A stretch of 32,000 nucleotides of DNA from Pseudomonadota bacterium (lineage in GTDB: Bacteria; Pseudomonadota; Gammaproteobacteria; Halothiobacillales; Halothiobacillaceae), in the NCBI GenBank assembly GCA_040758395.1, contig JBFLVP010000022.1:24968-56967 (forward strand). Reading direction: 5' to 3'. The notes beneath the pieces are model-generated. The model was not told where the DNA came from and made no database searches. It saw only the letters and a list, made by a program, of their open reading frames with translations. This document shows positions 8,238 to 16,131 of the stretch, in pieces. The translations under genes and the position numbers were made by a program. How positions within the stretch are numbered: position 1 is the first letter of the stretch; every line of letters begins with the position of its first letter.

Positions 8238-9266
8238 ATGTACAACGACTACCCTGACACTCCGGAAGAAGCCGCTTCCAATCTGCGCCTTGTGCTGCAA
8301 ATGATGGGGCGCCACGAAATCCCTCCCAATCCGCGCAACTATGCACTCTGCTACGAATACATCCTTGCACGGAGCCCCTCCCTCAACAGAGCCATCGACA
8401 CTCAGCTCGAGCAACACGGGCGACTGTCTGAGGATGCCTCCCTCAGCCTGTTTGACGAGCACATCGCTCACGGCGCCATCGGCACCGTGCAGGGCGCCCA
8501 GGAAGAACTCAAGCGCATCCTGCGTTCGGTCATGCTTCAACTGCTCCATACCGGCAACGAATTCGCCCAATATGCCAACGGCCTGGGTACGCACATCGAG
8601 CGCTTGAGAGGCGACCCCGATGCCAGCCTTCTGCGCGAAATCACTCAGCATGTCGTCGATGACACACGTCAACTCGAAACCAGCAGCAAGTACTCGAGCA
8701 CACGCCTTTCCGGCGCAACGGAAGAAATCGAGCGGCTCCGCAAGGAACTGGACGAAGCAAGAAAGGATGCCAGCACCGACCCCCTGACCGGCCTCCTCAA
8801 CCGACGTGCTTTTACCACCGTCATCGCCAATGCCATCACCAAGCATCGCGCGGACCAGCAGCCGTTCTGTCTTCTGATGCTGGACATCGACCACTTCAAG
8901 GAAGTCAATGACACCTACGGGCATCTGGTCGGTGACAAGGTTCTGCGGTTTGTTAGCCGACTCCTGTCGCAAGTCCTCAAGGGACAGGACACTTTGTGCC
9001 GATTTGGTGGCGAGGAGTTCGCCGCACTGCTCCCGGATACCGGTCTTGATGGTGCGGAGCACGTGGCTGAAACCATCCGGAGTCGCCTGCTGAACAGTCA
9101 ACTCCGCCTGACGGAGAGCGGCCAGTCGCTGGGCGAAATCACCGCCTCCTTTGGCGTCGCCAAGTTCCGAGGCGACGAGACCATCGAGGAGATCATCCAG
9201 CGCACCGACCGTGCCCTGTATGAGGCCAAGCGCCTGGGCCGCAACCGGGTTTCGCGCGCGCAATAA
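8238..9266 (+). CDS. Diguanylate cyclase (GGDEF domain, GGEEF active site) with an N-terminal coiled-coil/sensor region
   Basis: Start set at ATG 8238 (MYNDYPDTPEE...); the ORF-track 5' extension overlaps the PilZ gene. The GGDEF core is DPLTGLLNRRAF ... DIDHFKEVNDTYGHLVGD ... RFGGEEFAALL. The I-site position reads KGQD rather than RxxD. Confidence 0.9.
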   Translation: MYNDYPDTPEEAASNLRLVLQMMGRHEIPPNPRNYALCYEYILARSPSLNRAIDTQLEQHGRLSEDASLSLFDEHIAHGAIGTVQGAQEELKRILRSVMLQLLHTGNEFAQYANGLGTHIERLRGDPDASLLREITQHVVDDTRQLETSSKYSSTRLSGATEEIERLRKELDEARKDASTDPLTGLLNRRAFTTVIANAITKHRADQQPFCLLMLDIDHFKEVNDTYGHLVGDKVLRFVSRLLSQVLKGQDTLCRFGGEEFAALLPDTGLDGAEHVAETIRSRLLNSQLRLTESGQSLGEITASFGVAKFRGDETIEEIIQRTDRALYEAKRLGRNRVSRAQ

Positions 9267-9269
9267 AAA

Positions 9270-9289
9270 GGCCGCCCCATGGGGCGGCC
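9270..9289. terminator. GC-rich hairpin after the cyclase gene, at the island's left junction
   Basis: GGCCGCCCC (9270-9278) pairs with GGGGCGGCC (9281-9289). It is preceded by AAAAA on the plus strand, which is TTTTT after the hairpin on the minus strand. It could therefore terminate both the cyclase gene and the island's minus-strand operon. Confidence 0.5.
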
Positions 9290-9370
9290 CCTGCAAGGTG
9301 GTGGGGGCAGCCACACTATCCGGCTCTAATGGCGCCACAGAAGCGTTCTTGCAGCGCGTGAATTTCGAGA

Positions 9371-9442: not shown

Positions 9443-9607
9443 TCAGCGCTCGACAATCGGATCAGGCTTCGGGCCTTTCACGCGCTCAAGCCTGGGCTGC
9501 GGGTCGCCGGGTTTGGTGTCGTGATTCCTGGCCCGGTTGCGGGTTGCTGGGGTGCTGTCCGGCCTCATGGGGTTCTTCGGCTCGGTGGGGCCTTTGCGAT
9601 TGCTCAC
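9443..9607 (-). CDS. Hypothetical island protein (54 aa, basic, Pro-rich)
   Basis: The GTG start overlaps the upstream stop (GTGA) and is preceded by AGGAGA 5 nt upstream. Sequence: VSNRKGPTEPKNPMRPDSTPATRNRARNHDTKPGDPQPRLERVKGPKPDPIVER. No family recognised. Confidence 0.45.
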   Translation of the reverse strand: MSNRKGPTEPKNPMRPDSTPATRNRARNHDTKPGDPQPRLERVKGPKPDPIVER

Positions 9608-9816
9608 GGTCGTCTCCTGTGTTTGCGGGCTGCCTCGCGCTTCGCGTGCGCGGTGAGGATGTCCCAAAACTTGTCGAACTCGTTGTCGTCCATCATGTCC
9701 GGGTCCAAGCGCTCCAGCGGCGGCTCAGGGCCTGCGTTTGTCCCGGCGAGGGTCGATGATGCGGCCGCGCCCTTGCGAAGGCGCTCAATCTTGCGGCGAG
9801 GGTCGTCCATCGCCAT
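9604..9816 (-). CDS. Hypothetical island protein (70 aa)
   Basis: ATG start and high GC3. Sequence: MAMDDPRRKIERLRKG...DDNEFDKFWDILTAHAKREAARKHRRRP. It overlaps the upstream ORF by 32 nt. No family recognised. Confidence 0.5.
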   Translation of the reverse strand: MAMDDPRRKIERLRKGAAASSTLAGTNAGPEPPLERLDPDMMDDNEFDKFWDILTAHAKREAARKHRRRP

Positions 9817-9976
9817 GTTCCAGCTGTCGAAGCGCTTGGCGGACCTCGGCCAAGAGCAACAGCCCGACCTGGGCCTGAGAGTCGCCGAGGTCTGCTGATT
9901 GGCGAAGCCGCTTCAAGTAGCCCTCTCGCGTCGCCTTGTCGGGAATCAGGTTCGCACTGCCTGCGGGCCTAGCCAT
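9785..9976 (-). CDS. Hypothetical island protein (63 aa)
   Basis: ATG 9976 is preceded by GGAGG 7 nt upstream and overlaps the upstream stop (ATGGCTAG). Sequence: MARPAGSANLIPDKATREGYLKRLRQSADLGD.... The ORF-track version (start 10183) is an unlikely 5' extension. Confidence 0.45.
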   Translation of the reverse strand: MARPAGSANLIPDKATREGYLKRLRQSADLGDSQAQVGLLLLAEVRQALRQLEHGDGRPSPQD

Positions 9977-10283
9977 GTGAGCCCCTCCTGCGGCGCGATG
10001 CCTGCTCAGGTGCAGCCGGGGCCACATCCTCGGGCTCGGCCTTCTCAACGGGCGGAAGTTCGTCCGCAAGCTGCTGGATACCCGCTTGGGCGGCCTCAAG
10101 ATCATCGCCAAGGTGATGCCAGTTTCCCTCGGAAAGCAGCCAGAAACCCGGACGGTTGATCCCCTTCGGCGGACGGGAACCATTCTCGATGTCCCACAGC
10201 CAGAATCGGGTCACGCGCGTATATTTGACGCCACGGCTTTCGAGCATCGACTTGATTTCAGCAAGCCCGCGAGTGCTGGCCAT
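9969..10283 (-). CDS. Hypothetical island protein (104 aa), acidic/Pro-rich C-terminal half
   Basis: The ATG shares a base with the upstream TAA (TAATG), and GAGGAAGAG lies upstream as an SD. Codon bias is coding-like. No family recognised. Confidence 0.6.
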   Translation of the reverse strand: MASTRGLAEIKSMLESRGVKYTRVTRFWLWDIENGSRPPKGINRPGFWLLSEGNWHHLGDDLEAAQAGIQQLADELPPVEKAEPEDVAPAAPEQASRRRRGSHG

Positions 10284-10786
10284 TACTCTTCCTCAAAGAT
10301 GGGCTCGGAAAACGGGCCGTCTGCGATTCCGTCAGCTTTGCGCATATCGTCAAAGGCTTTATCCAGGTCCTCGTCAGAAATCTCACTCAGGATATTGCTC
10401 GGTGCCGATTCAAAACCACGCGACTTGGCGTAGGTATACATCGTCTCGGCGGGATTCCTTCCAGCCGCAACCTCGGCCCGAATCAGGCCGCCGACCTCGG
10501 ATTCCAGCGCGGCGTCCAGTTGCTCGTCGGTAAGCCCGAAAGCCTTGTATTCCTTCCGCCTGCCATCGACGACATGCTTGAGGGCGTCCGCGTAGTCCGG
10601 GCGCTGCGCCGCGAACTGTTTGGCCTGGCGGGCCACCTGGGCTTGAAGCTGCTGCATCTGCGCGGCCTGCGCCTGCTGCTGCGCGAAGGCATTCATCGCG
10701 TTGAGAATAGAATCCTGCTGGGCTTTCAGATAACCGACCGGATCATCTTCAAACCACTCTTGGTGACTCGTGTAATTGCGGGCCAT
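10283..10786 (-). CDS. Hypothetical island protein (167 aa): Gln/Ala-rich coiled coil plus a strongly acidic C-terminus
   Basis: Start set at ATG 10786 (MARNYTSHQEWF...), with GAGGT 7 nt upstream. The ORF-track start at 10837 would run through an upstream hairpin. It is the first gene of a five-gene coupled operon. Confidence 0.7.
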   Translation of the reverse strand: MARNYTSHQEWFEDDPVGYLKAQQDSILNAMNAFAQQQAQAAQMQQLQAQVARQAKQFAAQRPDYADALKHVVDGRRKEYKAFGLTDEQLDAALESEVGGLIRAEVAAGRNPAETMYTYAKSRGFESAPSNILSEISDEDLDKAFDDMRKADGIADGPFSEPIFEEE

Positions 10787-10810
10787 GGGAATACCTCGCT
10801 TTGAGAATAG

Positions 10811-10837
10811 GTGGGCGGAATTAACGTCGCCGCCCAC
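10811..10837 (-). promoter_or_regulatory. Leader hairpin immediately upstream of the small-ORF operon RBS
   Basis: GTGGGCGG (10811-10818) pairs with CCGCCCAC (10830-10837), an 8-bp stem with an 11-nt loop. It ends 24 nt upstream of ATG 10786. No U-tract follows it. Confidence 0.35.
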
Positions 10838-10845
10838 GACGGTTT

Positions 10846-10881
10846 GGCAATCGGCCTGGCAGGTAACTCAAGCCGATTGCC
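10846..10881. promoter_or_regulatory. 10-bp perfect inverted repeat (candidate operator) downstream of a TAATAT -10-like box
   Basis: GGCAATCGGC (10846-10855) pairs with GCCGATTGCC (10872-10881), with a 16-nt spacer. On the minus strand a TAATAT hexamer (10889-10894) lies just upstream. The corresponding -35 element (TTCGGT) is poor. Confidence 0.35.
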
Positions 10882-11046
10882 TGAATTCATATTACCGCAC
10901 TTTCACGATTTACCGAAGGTTAATGCCTGATTAACCCATACTGGTTTCTTGAGGCGCGAAAGAGGAATTAATGGGCGGACGAATCAGCATGTGCAGAGCG
11001 CTCAAAATGAGCACTTGAAAACCGCCGAAGCTCTCGCCGAGCAGTT

Positions 11047-11081
11047 CGGGCAAATGTTCGAAGCTTGCGGGCAAATGTTCG
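11047..11081. repeat. Two exact 14-bp direct repeats, CGGGCAAATGTTCG, 21 bp apart
   Basis: The copies are at 11047-11060 and 11068-11081, two helical turns apart. They lie in the 395-bp non-coding gap between the replication module and the small-ORF operon. Confidence 0.6.
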
Positions 11082-11234
11082 GACCCAGTTCTGGCAGCCT
11101 CGGGCGGTGAGTTTTGTGAGTTATTTCCGGCCCTGTTTATGTAAATGGCAGACTGGATGCTCCGCCAAGGGAAGGGACTTGTTCATGGTGGCCCCATAAG
11201 GGCTGGGCCTCGAAAAGTACCCGGATAAACTCCG

Positions 11235-11597
11235 TCAAGCCCCGCCTTTCAGGCTTACAGCCGCCCTGAAAGCGAAGGTTGCGGATTCGCCCGTCTGCAC
11301 TCTGCGCAGGAAGTCAGCGGCGGCGTCCGCGCTCTCGAAACAGGCGGAATCCATCAGGCGGCCACCGCGCACCAGCACGGCCCGGCTCGGCAAATCGGGG
11401 TCCGAGTTCCAGCCATCGGGATGGCCTGAATAGTCGTTGGAGCACAACCGCTTGAGCGCCGGGAGGTGGGCGCGGATCGCTGCCCGGTCGGCATCGGTCA
11501 AGCGTCTGGACGGATTCACCAAAAGCCGGTTTTTCGCATCAAGCCGAAAGTCGAAGCCGCGCTCGATCATGGCGAATAAAAATTCGGCGGCGGTCAC
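11235..11597 (-). CDS. Hypothetical island protein (120 aa); the N-terminus resembles a TubC_N-type docking motif
   Basis: The GTG start overlaps the helicase stop (GTGA), with GGAGGA 6 nt upstream. The N-terminus EFLFAMIERGFDFRLDAKNRLLVNPSRRLTDADRAAIRAHLPALKRL follows the G-hydrophobic-L...LT...R...I..H...L pattern of that small domain. This is recognition from memory only. Confidence 0.6.
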   Translation of the reverse strand: MTAAEFLFAMIERGFDFRLDAKNRLLVNPSRRLTDADRAAIRAHLPALKRLCSNDYSGHPDGWNSDPDLPSRAVLVRGGRLMDSACFESADAAADFLRRVQTGESATFAFRAAVSLKGGA

Positions 11598-13591
11598 CAG
11601 AATTCCTCCGGGTCATCCATATCTTCGCCAGTCCCGTTTTCTAGGTGGACATGGTGGACAGGTGGACAAGGCCAGTCAGAATGCGGGTTTGCGCCCGTCC
11701 ACCCGGTTTCATCAGTGGTGGACAGGTGGACAGCCTCGCCCCCCCTCGTGTCCACCTGTCCACCGTCCCCGTGGATATGGTGGACAGCCTCTAGCCCGCG
11801 TTGCGCCTGGGTTTGTCCACCCTGTCCACCTTGTCCACCCGATTTCGAGGGCTGCCCGGTTTCTTCATCGAACAAGATGGAATCCTTCACGGTGTACCAG
11901 CGGCCCCGGCCTAGCGGGGTGGATACTTGCGCCATCAGCTTTCGGTCATTGGTGAACAGGTGCCCAGCGCCCCGGATGGCCTGGGCAATGCTCTTCACGT
12001 CATGGCCCGGCGCGGCCTCAATCAAAGCCTCTTTGCTGAACATCCAGCGCCCCCCGGTCACGTCCCGGAATCCGGCGCGGTCGCGTACCTCGATCTCGCT
12101 CGCCGCGTCCTGAAAGCGTGCCCCATGTCGCAGGATGAAGGCGCGCACGGCCTCCAGGGTGCGTTCCCCGTCCGTGCCTGTAGCGTTGCTCCCCCATTGA
12201 GCGGCGACGGCTTGCACGGCCTGCCACACGCGGGCAGGGTTGACCGGGAGCACATCATGTCGGGCGGCGAACTCACCCGCCCATGCGATCAGGGCGAAGC
12301 GACGCAGGGCGCGGATTTGCTCGGGGGCGTGGTGCGGGCGTGTCATGTCCGCCGTGGCCTTGTCCAGGTGCTCCCGTACAGCGGCGCGGGCGGACTGGGC
12401 TGCGGGACAGGTGGCGATGATGGCGGACAGGACAGCAGGCCCCGCCGTGCCGTAGTTCACGGCGCAGGCCCGTTTCAGGTTTTGCACGAAGGCGGCGCGC
12501 TCATCCTCCGGCAGGTGGGCGGCGATGTCTTCCACCTCGATGTCCAGGGCGCGATGCAGCAGCCCGCCCTTGACCGGCCCGGTTTCGGACAGCTTGCCCT
12601 CGATGCTCATTTCCCCGGTGCTGATGGCGATGGTTCGCCATGCCCTGGGGGCCTTTAGCTGGCGGTCTGCCGACATGGCGGTTTTGCCCTGCCCTCCGGC
12701 TAGCTGATAGATCAGCGGGGCCATGTCCCGGTGTTGCCCGGCTCCAAGCTCATCCAAACACAGCGGAAGGTCGGCATGGGCTTCGGCCAAGCCCTCCAAG
12801 CCGTTGCCGGTAGTGTTCCAGCGGCGGACAAAGGACAAGGCCGGGGCCTCGGCAGGATCAACACCACAACCCCACACGGAAGCGGCAACCTGGGCAAGGG
12901 TGGTCTTCCCTCGGGACGTGGTGCCCCACAGGTGCACGATGAAGGAATCACCATCCCCCAGCAGCAGCCAAGGCGTGGCGAGCCCAGCGCAGACTGCGAA
13001 CAGGAGCGCGTCACTCCCGGCGATGCGTTCCCCTATCTCCCGTTGCCAGTCCTCCAGCGTGCCGGATGCGTGCACGGTCAAGGCGGTCGGGCTATACCGC
13101 TCCGGCTGGTAGACAACCTGGACGTTGCCTTCGGCAGTCAGCACGCGGTCGGGAAACACGAAGGCCATCCCCCCGTCCCGCCGATCCATCCAGCCAAGGC
13201 GCGGGGCGCTCGGGATGCGGTCCTCGGGCTTGAAGCTGGCGAGATAAGCCACCAGGCGGCGCTCTTTACCGGGGATGATGGCAAGGCCCATATTCGCCAG
13301 TTCGCGGGCAAGGATGGCGGGGTCCTCATGCAGGCGGGCGGCGGGGATGGCGAGCTGGCGGGCGTGCCCGTCATGATCCACGAAGGCCACCAGGCGGCCC
13401 CAATCTCCAGCGGTGCCGGTGGTCAGCCCGACAACCCACAGCGGGCCACACACAGCCTCCAGCTTGTGGCCTTCACCATCCTTGCCGGGCCTCACCTCGA
13501 ACACACCCGCGCCCCCTAGCTCCCAGCCATCCGGCGCGGCGATGCCATCCCACGGGCGCGGCGTAACTTCCACGTCTTCATCATGCAGCAT
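11594..13591 (-). CDS. DUF927-like P-loop replicative helicase / replication initiator
   Basis: Start set at ATG 13591 (MLHDEDVEV...), with AGGGGG upstream. Walker A is HLWGTTSRGKTTLAQVAASVWG and Walker B is LPLCLDELG. The overall layout resembles DUF927-family island and plasmid helicases. The low-complexity C-terminal tail is encoded by the octamer array. Confidence 0.85.
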   Translation of the reverse strand: MLHDEDVEVTPRPWDGIAAPDGWELGGAGVFEVRPGKDGEGHKLEAVCGPLWVVGLTTGTAGDWGRLVAFVDHDGHARQLAIPAARLHEDPAILARELANMGLAIIPGKERRLVAYLASFKPEDRIPSAPRLGWMDRRDGGMAFVFPDRVLTAEGNVQVVYQPERYSPTALTVHASGTLEDWQREIGERIAGSDALLFAVCAGLATPWLLLGDGDSFIVHLWGTTSRGKTTLAQVAASVWGCGVDPAEAPALSFVRRWNTTGNGLEGLAEAHADLPLCLDELGAGQHRDMAPLIYQLAGGQGKTAMSADRQLKAPRAWRTIAISTGEMSIEGKLSETGPVKGGLLHRALDIEVEDIAAHLPEDERAAFVQNLKRACAVNYGTAGPAVLSAIIATCPAAQSARAAVREHLDKATADMTRPHHAPEQIRALRRFALIAWAGEFAARHDVLPVNPARVWQAVQAVAAQWGSNATGTDGERTLEAVRAFILRHGARFQDAASEIEVRDRAGFRDVTGGRWMFSKEALIEAAPGHDVKSIAQAIRGAGHLFTNDRKLMAQVSTPLGRGRWYTVKDSILFDEETGQPSKSGGQGGQGGQTQAQRGLEAVHHIHGDGGQVDTRGGEAVHLSTTDETGWTGANPHSDWPCPPVHHVHLENGTGEDMDDPEEFW
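11644..11839. repeat. Dyad-symmetric array of TGTCCACC/GGTGGACA octamers (candidate origin iterons)
   Basis: GGTGGACA starts at 11644, 11653, 11661, 11717, 11725 and 11779. TGTCCACC starts at 11749, 11757, 11814, 11823 and 11832. A degenerate cGTCCACC starts at 11696. All six mirror pairs share one axis near 11741. Confidence 0.85.
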
Positions 13592-13925
13592 GGGCCACCC
13601 CCTTGGCTTTGAACGCGGCGAAGCCGTGCAAACGGCTGTTGATGGCGACGTGAACGGCCCCGGCATGGATCAAGCAACGGCCAAGACGTTGCAGCACCTC
13701 GGCGCGCTCGCCGGTGTCGATAACAAAGGCATGGCGGCTTTCGCGCACCACTCCCCAGTTGAAGCCCTCGGGCGCCTCGCCAGGGGGGAGGATCACCGCC
13801 TGGCCCCGCCAGTTGCGCGCCTCGCTCCAAGCCTGCGGCCCTGAAATGACGATGAGGCTCGCAAAGGGGGCGGATTGGTGCAGTGCCGCAATGGCGGCGA
13901 ATGGGGGGCGGCGTTGCCGCGTCAT
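13581..13925 (-). CDS. Hypothetical island protein (114 aa) between alpA and the helicase
   Basis: ATG 13925 lies 4 nt after the alpA stop, and the 3' end overlaps the helicase start by 11 nt, giving operon-style coupling. No family recognised. Confidence 0.6.
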   Translation of the reverse strand: MTRQRRPPFAAIAALHQSAPFASLIVISGPQAWSEARNWRGQAVILPPGEAPEGFNWGVVRESRHAFVIDTGERAEVLQRLGRCLIHAGAVHVAINSRLHGFAAFKAKGVAHAA

Positions 13926-13928
13926 GGC

Positions 13929-14183
13929 TTAACCCACCCCAGTTTTGAGGGGCTTGCCGCCCTGGGCGGCAGTGAACGAGCAGGACGCGCTGCCGCCACG
14001 CTGCTGGCAACGGGCTTCGATCCAGGCGTTAATTTCGTCGTCGCGCCAGGCGGCCACTCGTGGGCTGATTTTTACAGGCTTTGGTGCTGTTCCGAGACTG
14101 ACCCAGTGGTACCAGGTCGAGCGCGATACTCGCACTCGCGCCTGGACGTCGGGCCAGCGGAGGAATTGAACGGGTTGTTTCAT
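13929..14183 (-). CDS. alpA: AlpA family transcriptional regulator / excisionase-like DNA-binding protein
   Basis: Start set at ATG 14183, with GGAGA 7 nt upstream. FLRWPDVQARVRVSRSTWYHWVSLGTAPKPVKISPRVAAWRDDEINAWIEAR matches the Phage_AlpA helix-turn-helix pattern (SRST.Y......G.FP.P.K...R...W...E...W). Confidence 0.85.
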   Translation of the reverse strand: MKQPVQFLRWPDVQARVRVSRSTWYHWVSLGTAPKPVKISPRVAAWRDDEINAWIEARCQQRGGSASCSFTAAQGGKPLKTGVG

Positions 14184-14367: not shown

Positions 14368-15603
14368 TCAGGCCACGGACGGGAATCGGACCACCTCAGC
14401 CCCCGCTTTCAGCTTGCCCAGGTAGTCCGCCCACGCCTGCATCATCTTCCTGCGCTCCGGCAGGTGGGCGGTCCGGTTATAGGCCCTGCCGTTGGCATCC
14501 TTCACGGCGTGCGCCAACTGGTGCTCGATGAGGTCGATACGGAAGCCCAGCACCTCATCCAGCAGGGTGCGGGCGATGGCGCGGAAGCCGTGCCCGGTCA
14601 TCTCATCCTTGTGGATGTCCAGGCGGCGCATGGCGGACAGGATGGCGTTATCGCTCATGGGACGGGCGCGGGTGCGGGCGCTTGGGAAAACGTATTCACT
14701 CGCGCAGGTCAGGGGGTGAAGCTCGCGCAGAATCTCGACGGCCTGGCGGCTCAGGGGAACAACGTGCTCCGTCTTGGTTTTGCTTACGCGGTACACCCAT
14801 TCGGCGGCGTCCAGGTCCACATCACGCCAGCGCATGGTGCGCAGTTCGCCAGGACGGACGAAAACCAGCGGTGCAAGGCGCAGGGCGCAGGCCACGATGA
14901 AACCACCCTGATAGCCGTCCAGGGTGCGCAGCAAGGCCCCTACCCTTCGCTCGCGTTCCTTCGGCTCCAGGGTGCCATCAATGACGGCGGCAAGATGCTT
15001 TTCCCGTGCTGGCGGCAATGCGCCGCGCAGGTCGCCCGTGGGGTCGCGTTCGGCCCGTCCGGTCGCCACGGCGTAGCGGAAGATTTGCCCGCAGTTGCCC
15101 AGCACCCGGTGGGCGGTTTCCAGCGCCCCGCGTTCCTCGATTCGGCGAAGGTGAATCAGAAGCTCGGGCGCCTTGATGTCGGCAATGGGCTTGCTGCCCA
15201 ACCAGGGGAAGATGTCGCGCTCCAGTCGCTTGGTCATATTGTCCACATGGCGCGGGGACCAGGTGGGTGCGTACTTTGCCAGCCACTCGCGTGCGACTAC
15301 CTCGAAGCTGTTCGCGGCCCGCTCCTGTCCCGCTTGCTTGGCGGCCTTCCTGTGTTCGCCGGGGTCGATGCCTTGTGCAAGCTGCTCTCGCGCCTCGGTG
15401 TGTTTCCTGCGCGCTTCTTTCAGGCTCACGTCGGGGTAGGCCCCCAGGGCGAGGGTCTTTCGCTTGCCCATGTGGCGGTAGTCGTACCTCCACAGGCGTC
15501 CTCCCTTGGGGGTCACGAGAAGGTAGAGGCCCGCGCCGTCAGTCAGCTTGACGGGCTTGTCCGTGGGCTTGGCGTTGCGGATGGCGGTGTCGGTAAGGGG
15601 CAT
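14368..15603 (-). CDS. int: Tyrosine-type site-specific integrase, P4/CP4-57 family (DUF4102 N-terminal arm-binding domain)
   Basis: 411 aa. The N-terminus is LTDTAIRNAKPTDKPVKLTDGAGLYLLVTPKGGRLWRYDYR..GKRKTLALGAYPDVSLKEARRK. The catalytic region has HGFRAIARTLL and a C-terminal RAYNRTAHLPERRKMMQAWADYL. It lies next to the tmRNA 3' end. Confidence 0.95.
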   Translation of the reverse strand: MPLTDTAIRNAKPTDKPVKLTDGAGLYLLVTPKGGRLWRYDYRHMGKRKTLALGAYPDVSLKEARRKHTEAREQLAQGIDPGEHRKAAKQAGQERAANSFEVVAREWLAKYAPTWSPRHVDNMTKRLERDIFPWLGSKPIADIKAPELLIHLRRIEERGALETAHRVLGNCGQIFRYAVATGRAERDPTGDLRGALPPAREKHLAAVIDGTLEPKERERRVGALLRTLDGYQGGFIVACALRLAPLVFVRPGELRTMRWRDVDLDAAEWVYRVSKTKTEHVVPLSRQAVEILRELHPLTCASEYVFPSARTRARPMSDNAILSAMRRLDIHKDEMTGHGFRAIARTLLDEVLGFRIDLIEHQLAHAVKDANGRAYNRTAHLPERRKMMQAWADYLGKLKAGAEVVRFPSVA

Positions 15604-15704: not shown

Positions 15705-15730
15705 ATAAAAAACCCGCTAGAGTGCGGGTT
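15705..15730 (-). terminator. Rho-independent terminator downstream of ssrA
   Basis: On the minus strand the sequence reads AACCCGC-ACTCTA-GCGGGTT followed by TTTTTT. The stems are at 15724-15730 and 15711-17. It begins 36 nt after the tmRNA CCA end. Confidence 0.8.
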
Positions 15731-15765
15731 TCGTGGATGTCTTCGGATGTCGTCGGACTAAAATT

Positions 15766-16131
15766 TGGTGGAGGTGGGGGGAGTTGAACCCCCGTCCGCA
15801 AGCCCTCTGCTGTTGGCACTACATGCTTAGTCTCGCCTACTGGATTTAACCGCTCAGTCTCCGACGGACGGGATGCTGAACAGCGAGCCCTGAAGTTTTA
15901 GCCGCACGCTTTCGGGCAAAGCGCTTGGCGATTCTGTAATGGATGACCCCTGAATGGCCTTGCGGCCTCCGGACTTACAGACAAGAACCGGTCAGAGGCC
16001 CAGCCGGGTTAAGCGGCCAGGGAGTATACGTCGTCGTTGGCGTATATTTTTTTTGCGGCTGTTTCACGAGGTTTCCGCACCTCGGCATGCACCTCGAGCT
16101 TTGCAACCCACGTCGAAGCCAGGTCACCCCC
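15766..16131 (-). ncRNA. ssrA: tmRNA (transfer-messenger RNA, SsrA), 366 nt
   Basis: The 5' end GGGGGUGACCUGGCUUCGACG pairs with the 3' end ...GGUUCAACUCCCCCCACCUCCACCA, forming an acceptor stem with the G3:U pair plus a T-arm. The internal tag reading frame (16041-16009) is GCC AAC GAC GAC GTA TAC TCC CTG GCC GCT TAA, giving ANDDVYSLAA. Confidence 0.92.

What the first reader, a model, noticed from the sequence alone, without database searches (positions are those of the whole stretch)
9443..10786. Five-gene, tightly translationally coupled operon of unrecognisable small proteins (the island cargo)
ORFs of 167, 104, 63, 70 and 54 aa are chained by start/stop overlaps: TAATG at 10283, ATGGCTAG at 9969-9976, a 32-nt overlap at 9785-9816, and GTGA at 9604-9607. 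Most have good SD sequences (GAGGT, GAGGAAGAG, GGAGG, AGGAGA). I recognise none of them. The first has a Gln/Ala coiled coil and a very acidic C-terminus (…SEISDEDLDKAFDDMRKADGIADGPFSEPIFEEE). That composition is shared by scaffolding and size-determination proteins of phages and satellites, but this is a compositional hint only. The last is a small basic Pro-rich peptide. Being the only non-replication, non-integration genes on the element, they must encode whatever the island does to a helper phage or to the host.
Basis: partly seen in the sequence, partly recalled or inferred. Interest (0 to 1): 0.7.

Follow-up and report, generated by a model that had tools for sequence, protein, structure and literature searches.

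The report
Satellite island carrying split phage-scaffold copy
The five small genes are real, and two of them are pieces of a phage head-scaffolding protein carried by a 6.5 kb integrated island, which suggests the island is a phage parasite that tampers with its helper's capsid assembly.

Summary
Five minus-strand ORFs of 167, 104, 63, 70/68 and 54 aa are chained by start/stop overlaps at the stated coordinates. All five have a coding-frame signal.

They are the distal operon of a roughly 6.45 kb island: P4-type integrase, AlpA, a DUF927 primase/helicase, a 120 aa gene, a 450 nt gap, then the operon. The island lies between the 3' end of ssrA (tmRNA) and a host GGDEF gene.

"Unrecognisable" is wrong for two of the genes:
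- **ORF1** is homologous to the central core of an unannotated family of about 300 aa phage proteins. There are 1480 clusters at E<=1e-3. In six of six phage contexts the family member sits between the portal and the major capsid protein, which is the scaffolding slot.
- **ORF4** matches the C-terminal tail of the same family.
- The N-terminal ~114 residues of the phage protein are missing.

The same module recurs at 26-49% identity in other metagenomic contigs, several of which also carry integrase, primase or both. It consists of the truncated scaffold, an ORF2-like gene and an ORF3-like gene, sometimes with the tail ORF. In one related pair dN/dS is about 0.2. ORF2 and ORF3 are new families. 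ORF5 is not conserved.

Best reading: a minimalist phage satellite that competes with the helper's scaffold, as SaPI CpmB and Rcm do. This is inferred, not shown.

The parts
10283..10786 (-). ORF1, 167 aa. An N-terminally truncated phage scaffolding-protein homologue: coiled coil, helical bundle, then a degenerate C-terminal motif and an acidic tail.
   Evidence: 1480 homologues at E<=1e-3 in the representative library, mostly 280-320 aa, with ORF1 aligning to their residues ~100-250. A local HMM of 130 full-length members matches ORF1 over profile 115-243 at E 8e-47. AF2 pLDDT 87, all-helical.
9969..10283 (-). ORF2, 104 aa. A new small alpha/beta domain (residues 1-76) with a disordered acidic tail that ends in a basic stretch. 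Function unknown.
   Evidence: Homologues sit next to truncated-scaffold genes in L011, L012, L014, L015 and L017. Only 7 clusters in 5.8 billion proteins. AF2 pLDDT 73. No significant Foldseek hit in PDB or BFVD.
9785..9976 (-). ORF3, 63 aa. A helical protein with an N-terminal M-x-R-P-x-G-x-x-N motif. Possibly related to DUF5681, a putative small-terminase-like family, but this is unproven.
   Evidence: 49% identical to L011 1485-1658 and related to L012 2692-2979 and L017 3079-3420. hhalign against four DUF5681 proteins gives P 0.005 and probability 7%. No Pfam hit to DUF5681.
9604..9816 (-). ORF4, 70 aa (68 aa from ATG 9810). A free-standing copy of the scaffold family's C-terminal linker and tail motif (KIERLRKG...MDDNEFDKFW), followed by a basic tail.
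   Evidence: Matches scaffold profile positions 247-304 at 33 bits: E 2e-11 among 7 sequences and E 8e-9 in a six-frame search of the window and loci L001-L016. phmmer with ORF4 alone hits the extreme C-termini of about 45 of 149 family members that had been selected through ORF1. The L011 homologue also matches, E 5e-8.
9443..9607 (-). ORF5, 54 aa. A basic, Pro-rich peptide. Its status as a gene is uncertain.
   Evidence: GTGA-coupled start with AGGAGA upstream. Weakest coding score of the five. No homologue in L011-L017, in phages or in any profile library.
10787..11234 (.). Intergenic region upstream of the operon. Contains a tandem 14 nt repeat CGGGCAAATGTTCG x2 (11047-11060 and 11068-11081) and a 13 nt inverted repeat (10846-10858 / 10869-10881). 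Candidate control region or origin.
   Evidence: No sigma-70 consensus match on the minus strand. A comparable 620 nt gap precedes the truncated-scaffold gene in L012.
11235..11597 (-). 120 aa gene that follows the helicase gene. Unknown function. Conserved with the replication module, not with the operon.
   Evidence: Homologous ORFs follow the DUF927 gene in L003 and L004. No family hit.
11594..13666 (-). DUF927 primase/helicase-type replication protein. The gene caller starts it at 13591, giving 665 aa.
   Evidence: Pfam DUF927 E 3e-60. PHROG DNA primase/helicase E 2e-50.
13929..14183 (-). AlpA-type regulator/excisionase, 84 aa. A 114 aa gene of unknown function lies at 13581-13925.
   Evidence: Precomputed Pfam Phage_AlpA on the identical contig L001. 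Coordinates were mapped from L001.
14368..15603 (-). P4-type tyrosine integrase, 411 aa.
   Evidence: Pfam Arm-DNA-bind_3, Phage_int_M and Phage_integrase.
15766..16131 (-). tmRNA gene (ssrA), the integration target. The island begins at its 3' end.
   Evidence: ARAGORN. Rfam RF00023 at 207 bits.
9265..9310 (.). Left junction. A hairpin terminator shared with the convergent GGDEF gene (9265-9290), and a 10-of-11 match, GGTGGGGGCAG (9300-9310), to the tmRNA 3' end (15773-15783).
   Evidence: The match is not significant: 9% of shuffles do as well. The att site is therefore not established.

Best explanation
The operon is the helper-exploitation module of a minimalist phage satellite, about 6.45 kb, integrated at ssrA.

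**What the genes are.** The first and fourth genes are two pieces of a captured podovirus scaffolding protein.
- ORF1 keeps the coiled coil, the conserved helical core (PDYxDA...GRNPAE..Y..A..RGF) and a degenerate copy of the C-terminal motif.
- ORF4 keeps the linker and the canonical C-terminal tail (M-D/S-D-x-E-F-D-K-x-W), plus a basic end.
- The N-terminal ~114 residues of the phage protein are absent.

**Proposed mechanism.** When a helper of the P22_portal / Phage_capsid_3 podovirus type replicates in the cell, the translationally coupled operon is expressed. ORF1 and ORF4 then compete or co-assemble with the helper's full-length scaffold on the coat protein. Procapsid assembly is redirected towards particles suited to the island, or is poisoned for the phage. 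This is how SaPI CpmB and Rcm act against their helpers' scaffolds.

**Other genes.** ORF2 and ORF3 are co-conserved partners of unknown activity. ORF3 may be a truncated DUF5681 (TerS-like) protein that acts on packaging. ORF5 is probably dispensable or not a gene.

**Shown and inferred.** Shown: the homology, the truncation, the split, the synteny, the purifying selection and the island context. Inferred: that the phage family is a scaffold (from gene position), that ORF1 and ORF4 bind coat protein, the effect on capsid size, and dependence on a helper.
For: 1. **ORF1 homology.** 1480 clusters at E<=1e-3, typically 280-320 aa, with ORF1 aligning to their residues ~100-250.
2. **The family occupies the scaffold slot.** This holds in six of six phage contexts:
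   - Paracoccus phage KLEP18-1, Rhizobium phage RHph_Y1_10 and Podoviridae ctDrO704, between portal and MCP.
   - L008: P22_portal, family member, Phage_capsid_3, in that order.
   - L019 and L020: just upstream of Phage_capsid_3.
   - A few members weakly hit head-scaffolding PHROGs.
3. **ORF4 independently matches the C-terminal tail.** One 307-position profile is covered by ORF1 (115-243, E 8e-47) and ORF4 (247-304, 33 bits). ORF4 alone finds the extreme C-termini of about 45 family members.
4. **Truncated forms start at the same boundary elsewhere.** The profile start is 108-117 in four elements and about 130 in L014. They lie beside ORF2-like genes, ORF3-like genes or both (not in the 1.6 kb L013), and in three cases near an integrase. 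L011, L012, L013, L014, L015 and L017 are the elements. L011 has the same order, including an ORF4 homologue.
5. **Purifying selection.** dN/dS is 0.21, 0.21 and 0.18 for the ORF1-, ORF2- and ORF3-like genes of L012 against L017.
6. **Satellite architecture.** Integrase, AlpA, DUF927 primase/helicase, no structural or lysis genes, at ssrA.
7. **Precedent.** CpmB and Rcm are satellite proteins that share motifs with the helper scaffold and compete with it (PMC12409344).
Against: - No helper phage was identified. The closest full-length scaffold is only 42-43% identical.
- The scaffold function of the phage family rests on gene position and weak PHROG hits. No Pfam family, solved structure or annotation supports it.
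- No att direct repeat is significant, so recent mobility is unproven.
- No pac or cos site and no clear small terminase were found.
- At 6.45 kb the element could be packaged as concatemers in full-size heads, as PICMIs are, without any remodelling (PMC10803314).
- The sister islands L003 and L004 share the replication module but lack this operon, so it is an exchangeable accessory.
- ORF2 and ORF3 remain without function.
Confidence: 0.6

Rival explanations
1. Defence only. The truncated scaffold pieces act as dominant-negative poisons of helper procapsid assembly. They protect the host population, but the island is not itself packaged or re-sized.
For: The homology evidence is the same as for the main explanation. 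No packaging signal or clear small terminase is found on the island. No significant att repeat is found, so mobility is unproven. Known capsid remodellers also inhibit the helper (PMC12409344).
Against: The module is consistently linked to integrase and primase genes typical of satellites. Some relatives also carry DUF5681 and terminase large-subunit genes, which points to packaging rather than defence alone. No PADLOC model matches.
Confidence: 0.2
2. The ~300 aa phage family is not a scaffold. It would be another head-module protein, such as an internal or ejection protein or a portal-associated factor. ORF1 and ORF4 would then mimic that protein and interfere at a different step, for example portal incorporation or DNA ejection.
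For: The family has no Pfam or functional annotation. Its main PHROG, phrog_24697, is of unknown function. No structural match to solved scaffolds. In some contexts, such as L020 and ctDrO704, other genes also lie between portal and MCP.
Against: Size, acidic N-terminus, long Gln-rich coiled coil, all-helical prediction and the position directly upstream of the coat gene are what is expected of P22/T7-type scaffolds. A few members weakly hit head-scaffolding PHROGs. In the KLEP18-1 record several neighbouring genes are annotated as structural proteins, while gp08 is only "hypothetical protein".
Confidence: 0.12
3. Decayed prophage remnant. ORF1 and ORF4 would be fragments of a broken scaffold gene with no present function, and the small ORFs between them would be spurious.
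For: The two pieces together cover only part of the ancestral protein. ORF5 looks marginal.
Against: The same truncation point and the same gene order recur in elements only 26-49% identical, with intact frames, SD sequences and coupled starts. dN/dS is about 0.2. No portal, coat or terminase remnants flank the operon, and no N-terminal scaffold remnant lies upstream of ORF1. Neighbours are integrase and primase genes, not head genes.
Confidence: 0.04

Closest known systems
SaPI1 CpmB and SaPIpT1028 Rcm (capsid-size redirection proteins of staphylococcal PICIs)
   Same: A small, all-helical protein encoded by a satellite. It shares sequence motifs with the helper's internal scaffolding protein, especially at the C-terminal, coat-binding end, and is thought to compete with it (PMC12409344). 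It lies in the distal interference/packaging operon of an int-regulator-primase island.
   Different: No sequence relationship to CpmB or Rcm. Here the homology to the phage scaffold is extensive (about 130 residues, E 8e-47 against the profile) rather than a short motif. The copy is N-terminally truncated and split into two genes, ORF1 and ORF4, separated by two unrelated genes. The presumed helpers are podoviruses of Proteobacteria with a P22-type portal and a Phage_capsid_3 coat, not staphylococcal siphoviruses. Function is untested.
PICMI (phage-inducible chromosomal minimalist islands, Vibrionaceae)
   Same: About 6 kb, with an int-alpA-primase core plus a few small genes of unknown function. 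Found in environmental Gammaproteobacteria. Satellites of phages with genomes of roughly 40-50 kb (PMC10803314).
   Different: PICMIs integrate next to fis and use DUF3987/DUF5906 primases. By definition they lack capsid-remodelling genes and package as concatemers in full-size heads. This island sits at ssrA, uses a DUF927 protein and carries scaffold-derived genes.
P4-like satellites (Sid external scaffold, Psu, alpha primase-helicase)
   Same: A P4-type integrase with an Arm-DNA-bind_3 domain, AlpA, a large primase/helicase-type replication protein, and integration at a small stable-RNA gene. Capsid size is redirected by a satellite-encoded scaffold-like protein.
   Different: No Sid, Psu or Delta homologues. 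Sid is an external scaffold unrelated to the helper's internal scaffold. This island is half the size of P4.
Internal scaffolding proteins of P22 (gp8) and T7 (gp9)
   Same: The parent phage family has the same length (~300 aa), the same helical and coiled-coil character, and the same gene position between portal and coat. By analogy with gp8, the conserved C-terminal tail is the likely coat-binding element (my own knowledge of gp8).
   Different: No detectable sequence or fold similarity to any solved scaffold. ORF1 and ORF4 lack the N-terminal third.

Membership tests
Phage satellite (PICI / P4 / PICMI sense) | Site-specific integrase at one end, next to the attachment site | tested here: met
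   A 411 aa tyrosine integrase (Arm-DNA-bind_3, Phage_int_M, Phage_integrase) lies 160 nt from the tmRNA 3' end.
Phage satellite (PICI / P4 / PICMI sense) | AlpA-type regulator and its own primase/replicase | tested here: met
   Phage_AlpA on the identical contig L001. DUF927 at E 3e-60 and PHROG primase/helicase.
Phage satellite (PICI / P4 / PICMI sense) | Small size and no capsid, tail or lysis genes of its own | tested here: met
   About 6.45 kb between 9311 and 15765. The gene caller finds ten genes. None hits a structural or lysis family.
Phage satellite (PICI / P4 / PICMI sense) | Flanking att direct repeats | tested here: inconclusive
   The best candidate is a 10-of-11 match, GGTGGGGG[C/G]AG, at 9300-9310 against 15773-15783. 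Matches this good occur in 9% of shuffles.
Phage satellite (PICI / P4 / PICMI sense) | Induction, replication and packaging that depend on a helper phage | not testable with these tools
   Needs infection experiments. No helper was identified.
PICMI | Integration next to fis, a DUF3987/DUF5906 primase, and no capsid-remodelling genes | tested here: not met
   Integrated at ssrA. The replication protein is DUF927. Scaffold-derived genes are present. Definition taken from PMC10803314.
P4-like satellite | Sid, Psu and Delta genes | tested here: not met
   No Pfam or PHROG hit for any of the small ORFs.
CpmB/Rcm-type scaffold competitor | A satellite-encoded helical protein with sequence similarity to a phage internal scaffolding protein | tested here: met
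   ORF1 matches profile 115-243 at E 8e-47 and ORF4 matches 247-304 at 33 bits. ORF1 is predicted all-helical. The scaffold role of the phage family is inferred from gene position in six contexts.
CpmB/Rcm-type scaffold competitor | Binds the helper coat protein and is necessary and sufficient for small capsids | not testable with these tools
   Requires a helper phage, interaction assays and EM.
CpmB/Rcm-type scaffold competitor | Sequence homology to CpmB or Rcm themselves | tested here: not met
   A profile search of all PDB chain sequences at E<=10 returned only six unrelated coiled-coil proteins. That library should include the deposited CpmB chain (6B23, cited in PMC12409344), though this was not verified. 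Foldseek against PDB gave nothing significant. Rcm itself was not compared.
Unannotated podovirus scaffold family (phrog_24697-like, ~300 aa) | Full architecture: acidic N-terminus with the VP..AL..eR helix, the DDPxGYL coiled coil, the PDYxDA...GxNPAE...RGY core, a linker, and the MSDxEFDKxW tail | tested here: not met
   ORF1 has only the middle part plus a degenerate tail motif. ORF4 has the linker and tail. Profile positions 1-114 are absent from the island in all six frames. These are derived fragments, not ordinary members.
DUF5681 (PF18932; sits upstream of terminase genes) | A match of ORF3 to the family profile | tested here: inconclusive
   No Pfam hit for ORF3 or its homologues at E<=10. 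hhalign of 4 against 4 sequences aligns the RPxGSxN and A..G(D)..A...L motifs, but with P 0.005 and probability 7%. True DUF5681 genes occur as separate genes in L011, L014 and L017.

The most novel reading that the evidence does not exclude
This would be the first sighting of a previously undescribed, widespread lineage of minimalist satellites of P22/T7-like podoviruses in environmental Proteobacteria. These satellites would hijack capsid assembly with a captured copy of the helper's own scaffolding protein that is N-terminally truncated and sometimes split, working with two new partner proteins (the ORF2 and ORF3 families). It would be a capsid-redirection mechanism for podovirus helpers, for which none is known to me. 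It would also give the first functional handle on a large unannotated phage scaffold family of more than 1400 clusters.
Probability: 0.35. Interest if true: 0.75.

Novelty: new variant of a known kind. Interest (0 to 1): 0.6.

Why it matters
Capsid redirection by satellites has been worked out for only a handful of proteins: Sid, CpmA/B, Ccm, TcaP and Rcm. As far as I know, none of these acts on a podovirus helper.

Marine and environmental mini-satellites such as VEIMEs and PICMIs are thought mostly to lack remodelling genes. A 6.5 kb island that carries a clearly homologous, truncated and split copy of a phage scaffold, conserved in several divergent elements, is a concrete counter-example that can be tested by expression.

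It also shows how such remodellers can arise, by capture and truncation of the helper's own scaffold gene. It assigns a probable function to a large unannotated phage protein family. And it delimits which parts of that scaffold a parasite keeps: the coiled coil, the core and the C-terminal tail.

Tried and rejected
**Searches that found nothing**
- Pfam, PHROG, NCBIfam and PADLOC scans of all five ORFs and of the 120, 114 and 84 aa island genes gave nothing significant.
- The word-indexed search of 5.8 billion proteins with ORF1 found only ORF1 itself. Only the exhaustive HMMER search revealed the family.
- Scans of genome contigs and viral contigs with ORF1 found nothing. The metagenome-contig scan gave one high-GC phage-like contig, L018, which I did not pursue.
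- A PDB sequence-profile search with the family alignment returned only coiled-coil noise.
- tblastn of ORF2, ORF3 and ORF5 against 50,697 phage records found no match.
- Literature searches for the KLEP18-1 phage were unproductive.

**Leads tested and left unresolved**
- ORF3 as a DUF5681/TerS fragment: suggestive motifs but not significant.
- An att repeat at the island ends: no exact repeat of 12 nt or more, and the best imperfect match is not significant.
- Short forms as a single clade: not supported. They are as distant from one another as from phage scaffolds, at 34-55% core identity.

**Readings rejected**
- Prophage remnant.
- Housekeeping genes.
- A known defence system.
Full report
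**1. The observation**

- ORF1: 10786..10283, with GAGGT upstream.
- ORF1/ORF2: TAATG.
- ORF2/ORF3: ATGGCTAG at 9976-9969, with AGGAGG upstream.
- ORF3/ORF4: a 32 nt overlap, or 26 nt if ORF4 starts at ATG 9810 as an independent gene caller chose.
- ORF4/ORF5: GTGA, with AGGAGA upstream.

The same five genes (167, 104, 63, 68 and 54 aa) were called on two identical Logan contigs from the same population. Each ORF scores best in its own frame with a codon model trained on flanking host genes, and each has the GC2-low, GC3-high pattern. ORF5 is the weakest.

**2. Context**

The window carries one tmRNA gene at 15766-16131 on the minus strand. Going leftwards from its 3' end, the genes are:
- a P4-type integrase (14368-15603)
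- AlpA (13929-14183)
- a 114 aa gene
- a DUF927 primase/helicase-type protein (11594-13591/13666)
- a 120 aa gene (11235-11597)
- a 450 nt gap
- the five-gene operon
- a hairpin terminator and a convergent host GGDEF gene, with a PilZ gene beyond it

This is the architecture of a small phage satellite of about 6.45 kb. I could not establish the att repeat. The best candidate, GGTGGGGG[C/G]AG at 9300-9310 against 15773-15783, is no better than 9% of shuffles.

Two Halothiobacillaceae MAG contigs carry 74-83% identical DUF927 proteins followed by the 120 aa homologue. One then has different cargo (L003) and the other has none (L004). The operon is therefore an exchangeable accessory module.

**3. 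ORF1 is a truncated phage scaffold homologue**

Profile libraries gave nothing for any of the five proteins, and the word-indexed search found only ORF1 itself. The exhaustive HMMER search of 1.84 billion representatives found 1480 proteins at E<=1e-3 and 76 at E<=1e-10. Most are 280-320 aa, and ORF1 aligns to their residues ~100-250.

None of these proteins has a Pfam domain or a functional name. Their genomic position is consistent.
- In Paracoccus phage KLEP18-1, Rhizobium phage RHph_Y1_10 and Podoviridae ctDrO704 the homologue lies between the portal and the major capsid protein.
- On a 38.7 kb Logan phage contig the order is P22_portal, family member, Phage_capsid_3, then SU10_adaptor further downstream.
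- On two further phage contigs it lies just upstream of Phage_capsid_3.

That position is the scaffolding-protein slot of P22/T7-type head modules. Other features fit a scaffold:
- The length of about 300 aa, an acidic N-terminus and a long Gln-rich coiled coil.
- The all-helical AF2 model of ORF1, with pLDDT 87: a helix at 16-61, a helical bundle at 65-122 and a C-terminal helix at 138-151.
- Weak hits of a few members to head-scaffolding PHROGs.

There is no similarity to any solved structure. The scaffold assignment is therefore by position, not by demonstrated function.

**4. ORF4 is the tail of the same protein**

I built a 307-position HMM from 130 full-length family members.
- ORF1 matches positions 115-243 (E 8e-47). 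It also has a degenerate copy of the tail motif, LSEISDEDLDKAFDDM.
- ORF4 matches positions 247-304 at 33 bits. This covers the linker motif (KIERLRKGAAASSTL) and the signature M-D/S-D-x-E-F-D-K-x-W.

The ORF4 match is not circular, because those 130 proteins were selected through ORF1. It holds in a six-frame search of the window and loci L001-L016 (E 8e-9). ORF4 alone, by phmmer, hits the extreme C-termini of about 45 of the 149 proteins.

No trace of profile positions 1-114 exists upstream of ORF1. The island therefore carries the C-terminal two-thirds of a scaffold, split into two genes with ORF2 and ORF3 between them.

**5. The module is conserved in other islands**

Several short homologues (158-190 aa) start at the same boundary as ORF1. 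Their contigs show the same operon.
- **L011** (JGI, 3 kb): genes of 188, 144, 57, 70 and 74 aa joined by the same kinds of overlaps. The first four are homologous to ORF1 (36%), ORF2 (31%), ORF3 (49%) and ORF4 (41%, and it also matches the scaffold tail). The fifth gene is unrelated to ORF5. A weak DUF5681 gene follows.
- **L012 and L017**: short scaffold, ORF2-like, ORF3-like, DUF5681, integrase.
- **L014** (72.8 kb contig): P4-type integrase, HTH_17, PriCT_2/AAA_25 primase fragments, short scaffold, small ORFs, ORF2-like, DUF5681, fragmented terminase large subunit, then host pgsA-uvrC.
- **L015**: short scaffold, a 61 aa gene, ORF2-like.
- **L013** (1.6 kb): a short scaffold form with no ORF2-like or ORF3-like gene on the fragment.

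The ORF2 family has only seven clusters in 5.8 billion proteins.

Between L012 and L017, dN/dS is 0.21, 0.21 and 0.18 for the three conserved genes. ORF1 to ORF4 therefore belong to gene families that evolve under purifying selection in relatives. ORF5 is unsupported beyond its coupled start.

The short forms do not form an obvious clade. They are as far from each other as from phage scaffolds, so the data are compatible either with an old capture or with repeated captures.

**6. ORF2 and ORF3**

ORF2 is predicted (pLDDT 73) to have a compact alpha-beta-alpha-beta-beta-alpha domain over residues 1-76, followed by a disordered acidic tail that ends in a basic patch. No significant fold match was found in PDB or BFVD.

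ORF3 is a short helical protein. Its N-terminal RPxGSxN motif and a later A..G(D)..A...L motif resemble DUF5681, the family found upstream of terminase genes in the phage contig L008 and in island L014. The profile-profile comparison is weak, at P 0.005 and probability 7%, and true DUF5681 genes coexist with ORF3-like genes in L011 and L017. I treat this as a lead only.

**7. Mechanism**

The best-supported explanation is that the operon is the helper-exploitation module of a satellite. ORF1 and ORF4 would act as scaffold competitors or co-assemblers that redirect or poison procapsid assembly of a podovirus helper.

The closest precedents are SaPI1 CpmB and SaPIpT1028 Rcm. These share motifs with their helper's scaffold and are proposed to displace it on the coat protein (PMC12409344).

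Phages carrying the family have genomes of about 39-46 kb. A 6.45 kb island would fit smaller capsids as one to a few copies, or full-size capsids as about six copies. The latter is the PICMI solution, which needs no remodelling (PMC10803314). The presence of scaffold-derived genes argues that this lineage does interfere with assembly, but size redirection specifically is the least secure step.

Rivals are interference without transfer, a non-scaffold role for the phage family, and a prophage remnant. The last is largely excluded by synteny, intact frames and dN/dS.

**8. Comparison and novelty**

The element works like a CpmB/Rcm-type system, but it is not a member of those families by sequence. 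It fails the PICMI definition on fis, primase type and absence of remodellers, and it fails the P4 definition because it has no Sid, Psu or Delta.

I classify it as a new variant of a known kind: a satellite capsid-interference module derived by truncating and splitting a podovirus scaffold, with two new partner families.

The marine-satellite papers report that most such elements encode no capsid-like structural genes (Eppley et al. preprint; PICMI). These islands would be a contrast.

**9. Verdict**

The operon, its role as island cargo and the scaffold hint are right. "Unrecognisable" and the five-gene unity are not.
- Confidence that ORF1 and ORF4 are scaffold-family fragments: about 0.9.
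- Confidence that the phage family is a scaffold: about 0.8.
- Confidence that the operon manipulates helper capsid assembly: about 0.6.
- Interest: 0.6.

Noticed in passing
window 10787-11234: The 450 nt gap upstream of the operon holds an exact tandem 14 nt repeat (CGGGCAAATGTTCG at 11047-11060 and 11068-11081, 21 nt apart). It also holds a 13 nt inverted repeat (10846-10858 / 10869-10881) about 60 nt before the ORF1 start. This could be an operator, an iteron origin or a packaging site. No sigma-70-like promoter was found on the minus strand.
   Followed up: partly
window 9265-9290 and 15707-15731: Both island junctions carry a hairpin followed, on the minus strand, by TTTTTATTG. One lies just after the tmRNA 3' end inside the island. 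The other lies at the far end next to the GGDEF gene. This looks like a duplicated or replaced ssrA terminator. The alignment score is within the shuffle range.
   Followed up: partly
window 11640-11800 (C-terminal part of the DUF927 gene): Short DNA repeats (TGGTGGACAGGTGGACA at 11652 and 11716, GTGGA[CT]ATGGTGGACAG at 11645 and 11771) encode a repetitive Gly/Gln/His-rich C-terminal tail (GGQGGQ...GGQVD...EAVHH...PPVHHVHLEN). The tail is also present in the L003 and L004 homologues.
   Followed up: no
L009 (Logan SRR12996298 contig; protein P0209, seen on 139 contigs, named in Pseudomonas): A full-length (329 aa) but distant member of the scaffold family sits in an element that has a resolvase, a VapE-like/DUF5906 primase and an HTH_17 gene. 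It follows a 1085 aa protein, and no major capsid gene is nearby. This may be a different, widespread Pseudomonas satellite that carries a whole scaffold gene.
   Followed up: no
L014 7369-10432 (ENA ERZ25039549 contig_70635): A larger island combines a P4-type integrase, primase fragments, a short scaffold, an ORF2-like gene, a DUF5681 gene and a terminase large subunit split into 90, 67 and 331 aa ORFs. The splits probably come from frameshifts in a long-read assembly. Some relatives of this module therefore bring their own terminase.
   Followed up: partly
L003 12417-13215 and L004 2894-3900: Sister islands share the DUF927 and 120 aa module at 74-83% identity. L003 carries unrelated cargo (226 aa and 68 aa genes). 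L004 has none, and a tRNA-like sequence follows the 116 aa gene. Cargo turnover appears rapid on a conserved replication backbone.
   Followed up: partly
L013 224-385: A 53 aa ORF immediately upstream of, and overlapping, the short scaffold gene matches positions 74-114 of the scaffold profile very weakly (E 0.76). It may be a separately encoded remnant of the N-terminal region.
   Followed up: no
window 10283-10330 and L011 1000-1051: ORF1 and its closest short relative P0002 share a C-terminal ending absent from the phage scaffolds (EPIFEEE against RKIFDES). It could be a satellite-specific interaction peptide.
   Followed up: no
window 15766-16131: The tmRNA tag peptide is ANDDVYSLAA. The record is a MAG labelled only "Pseudomonadota bacterium". 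The nearest DUF927 relatives are in Halothiobacillus and Halothiobacillaceae MAGs, which hints at the host lineage.
   Followed up: no
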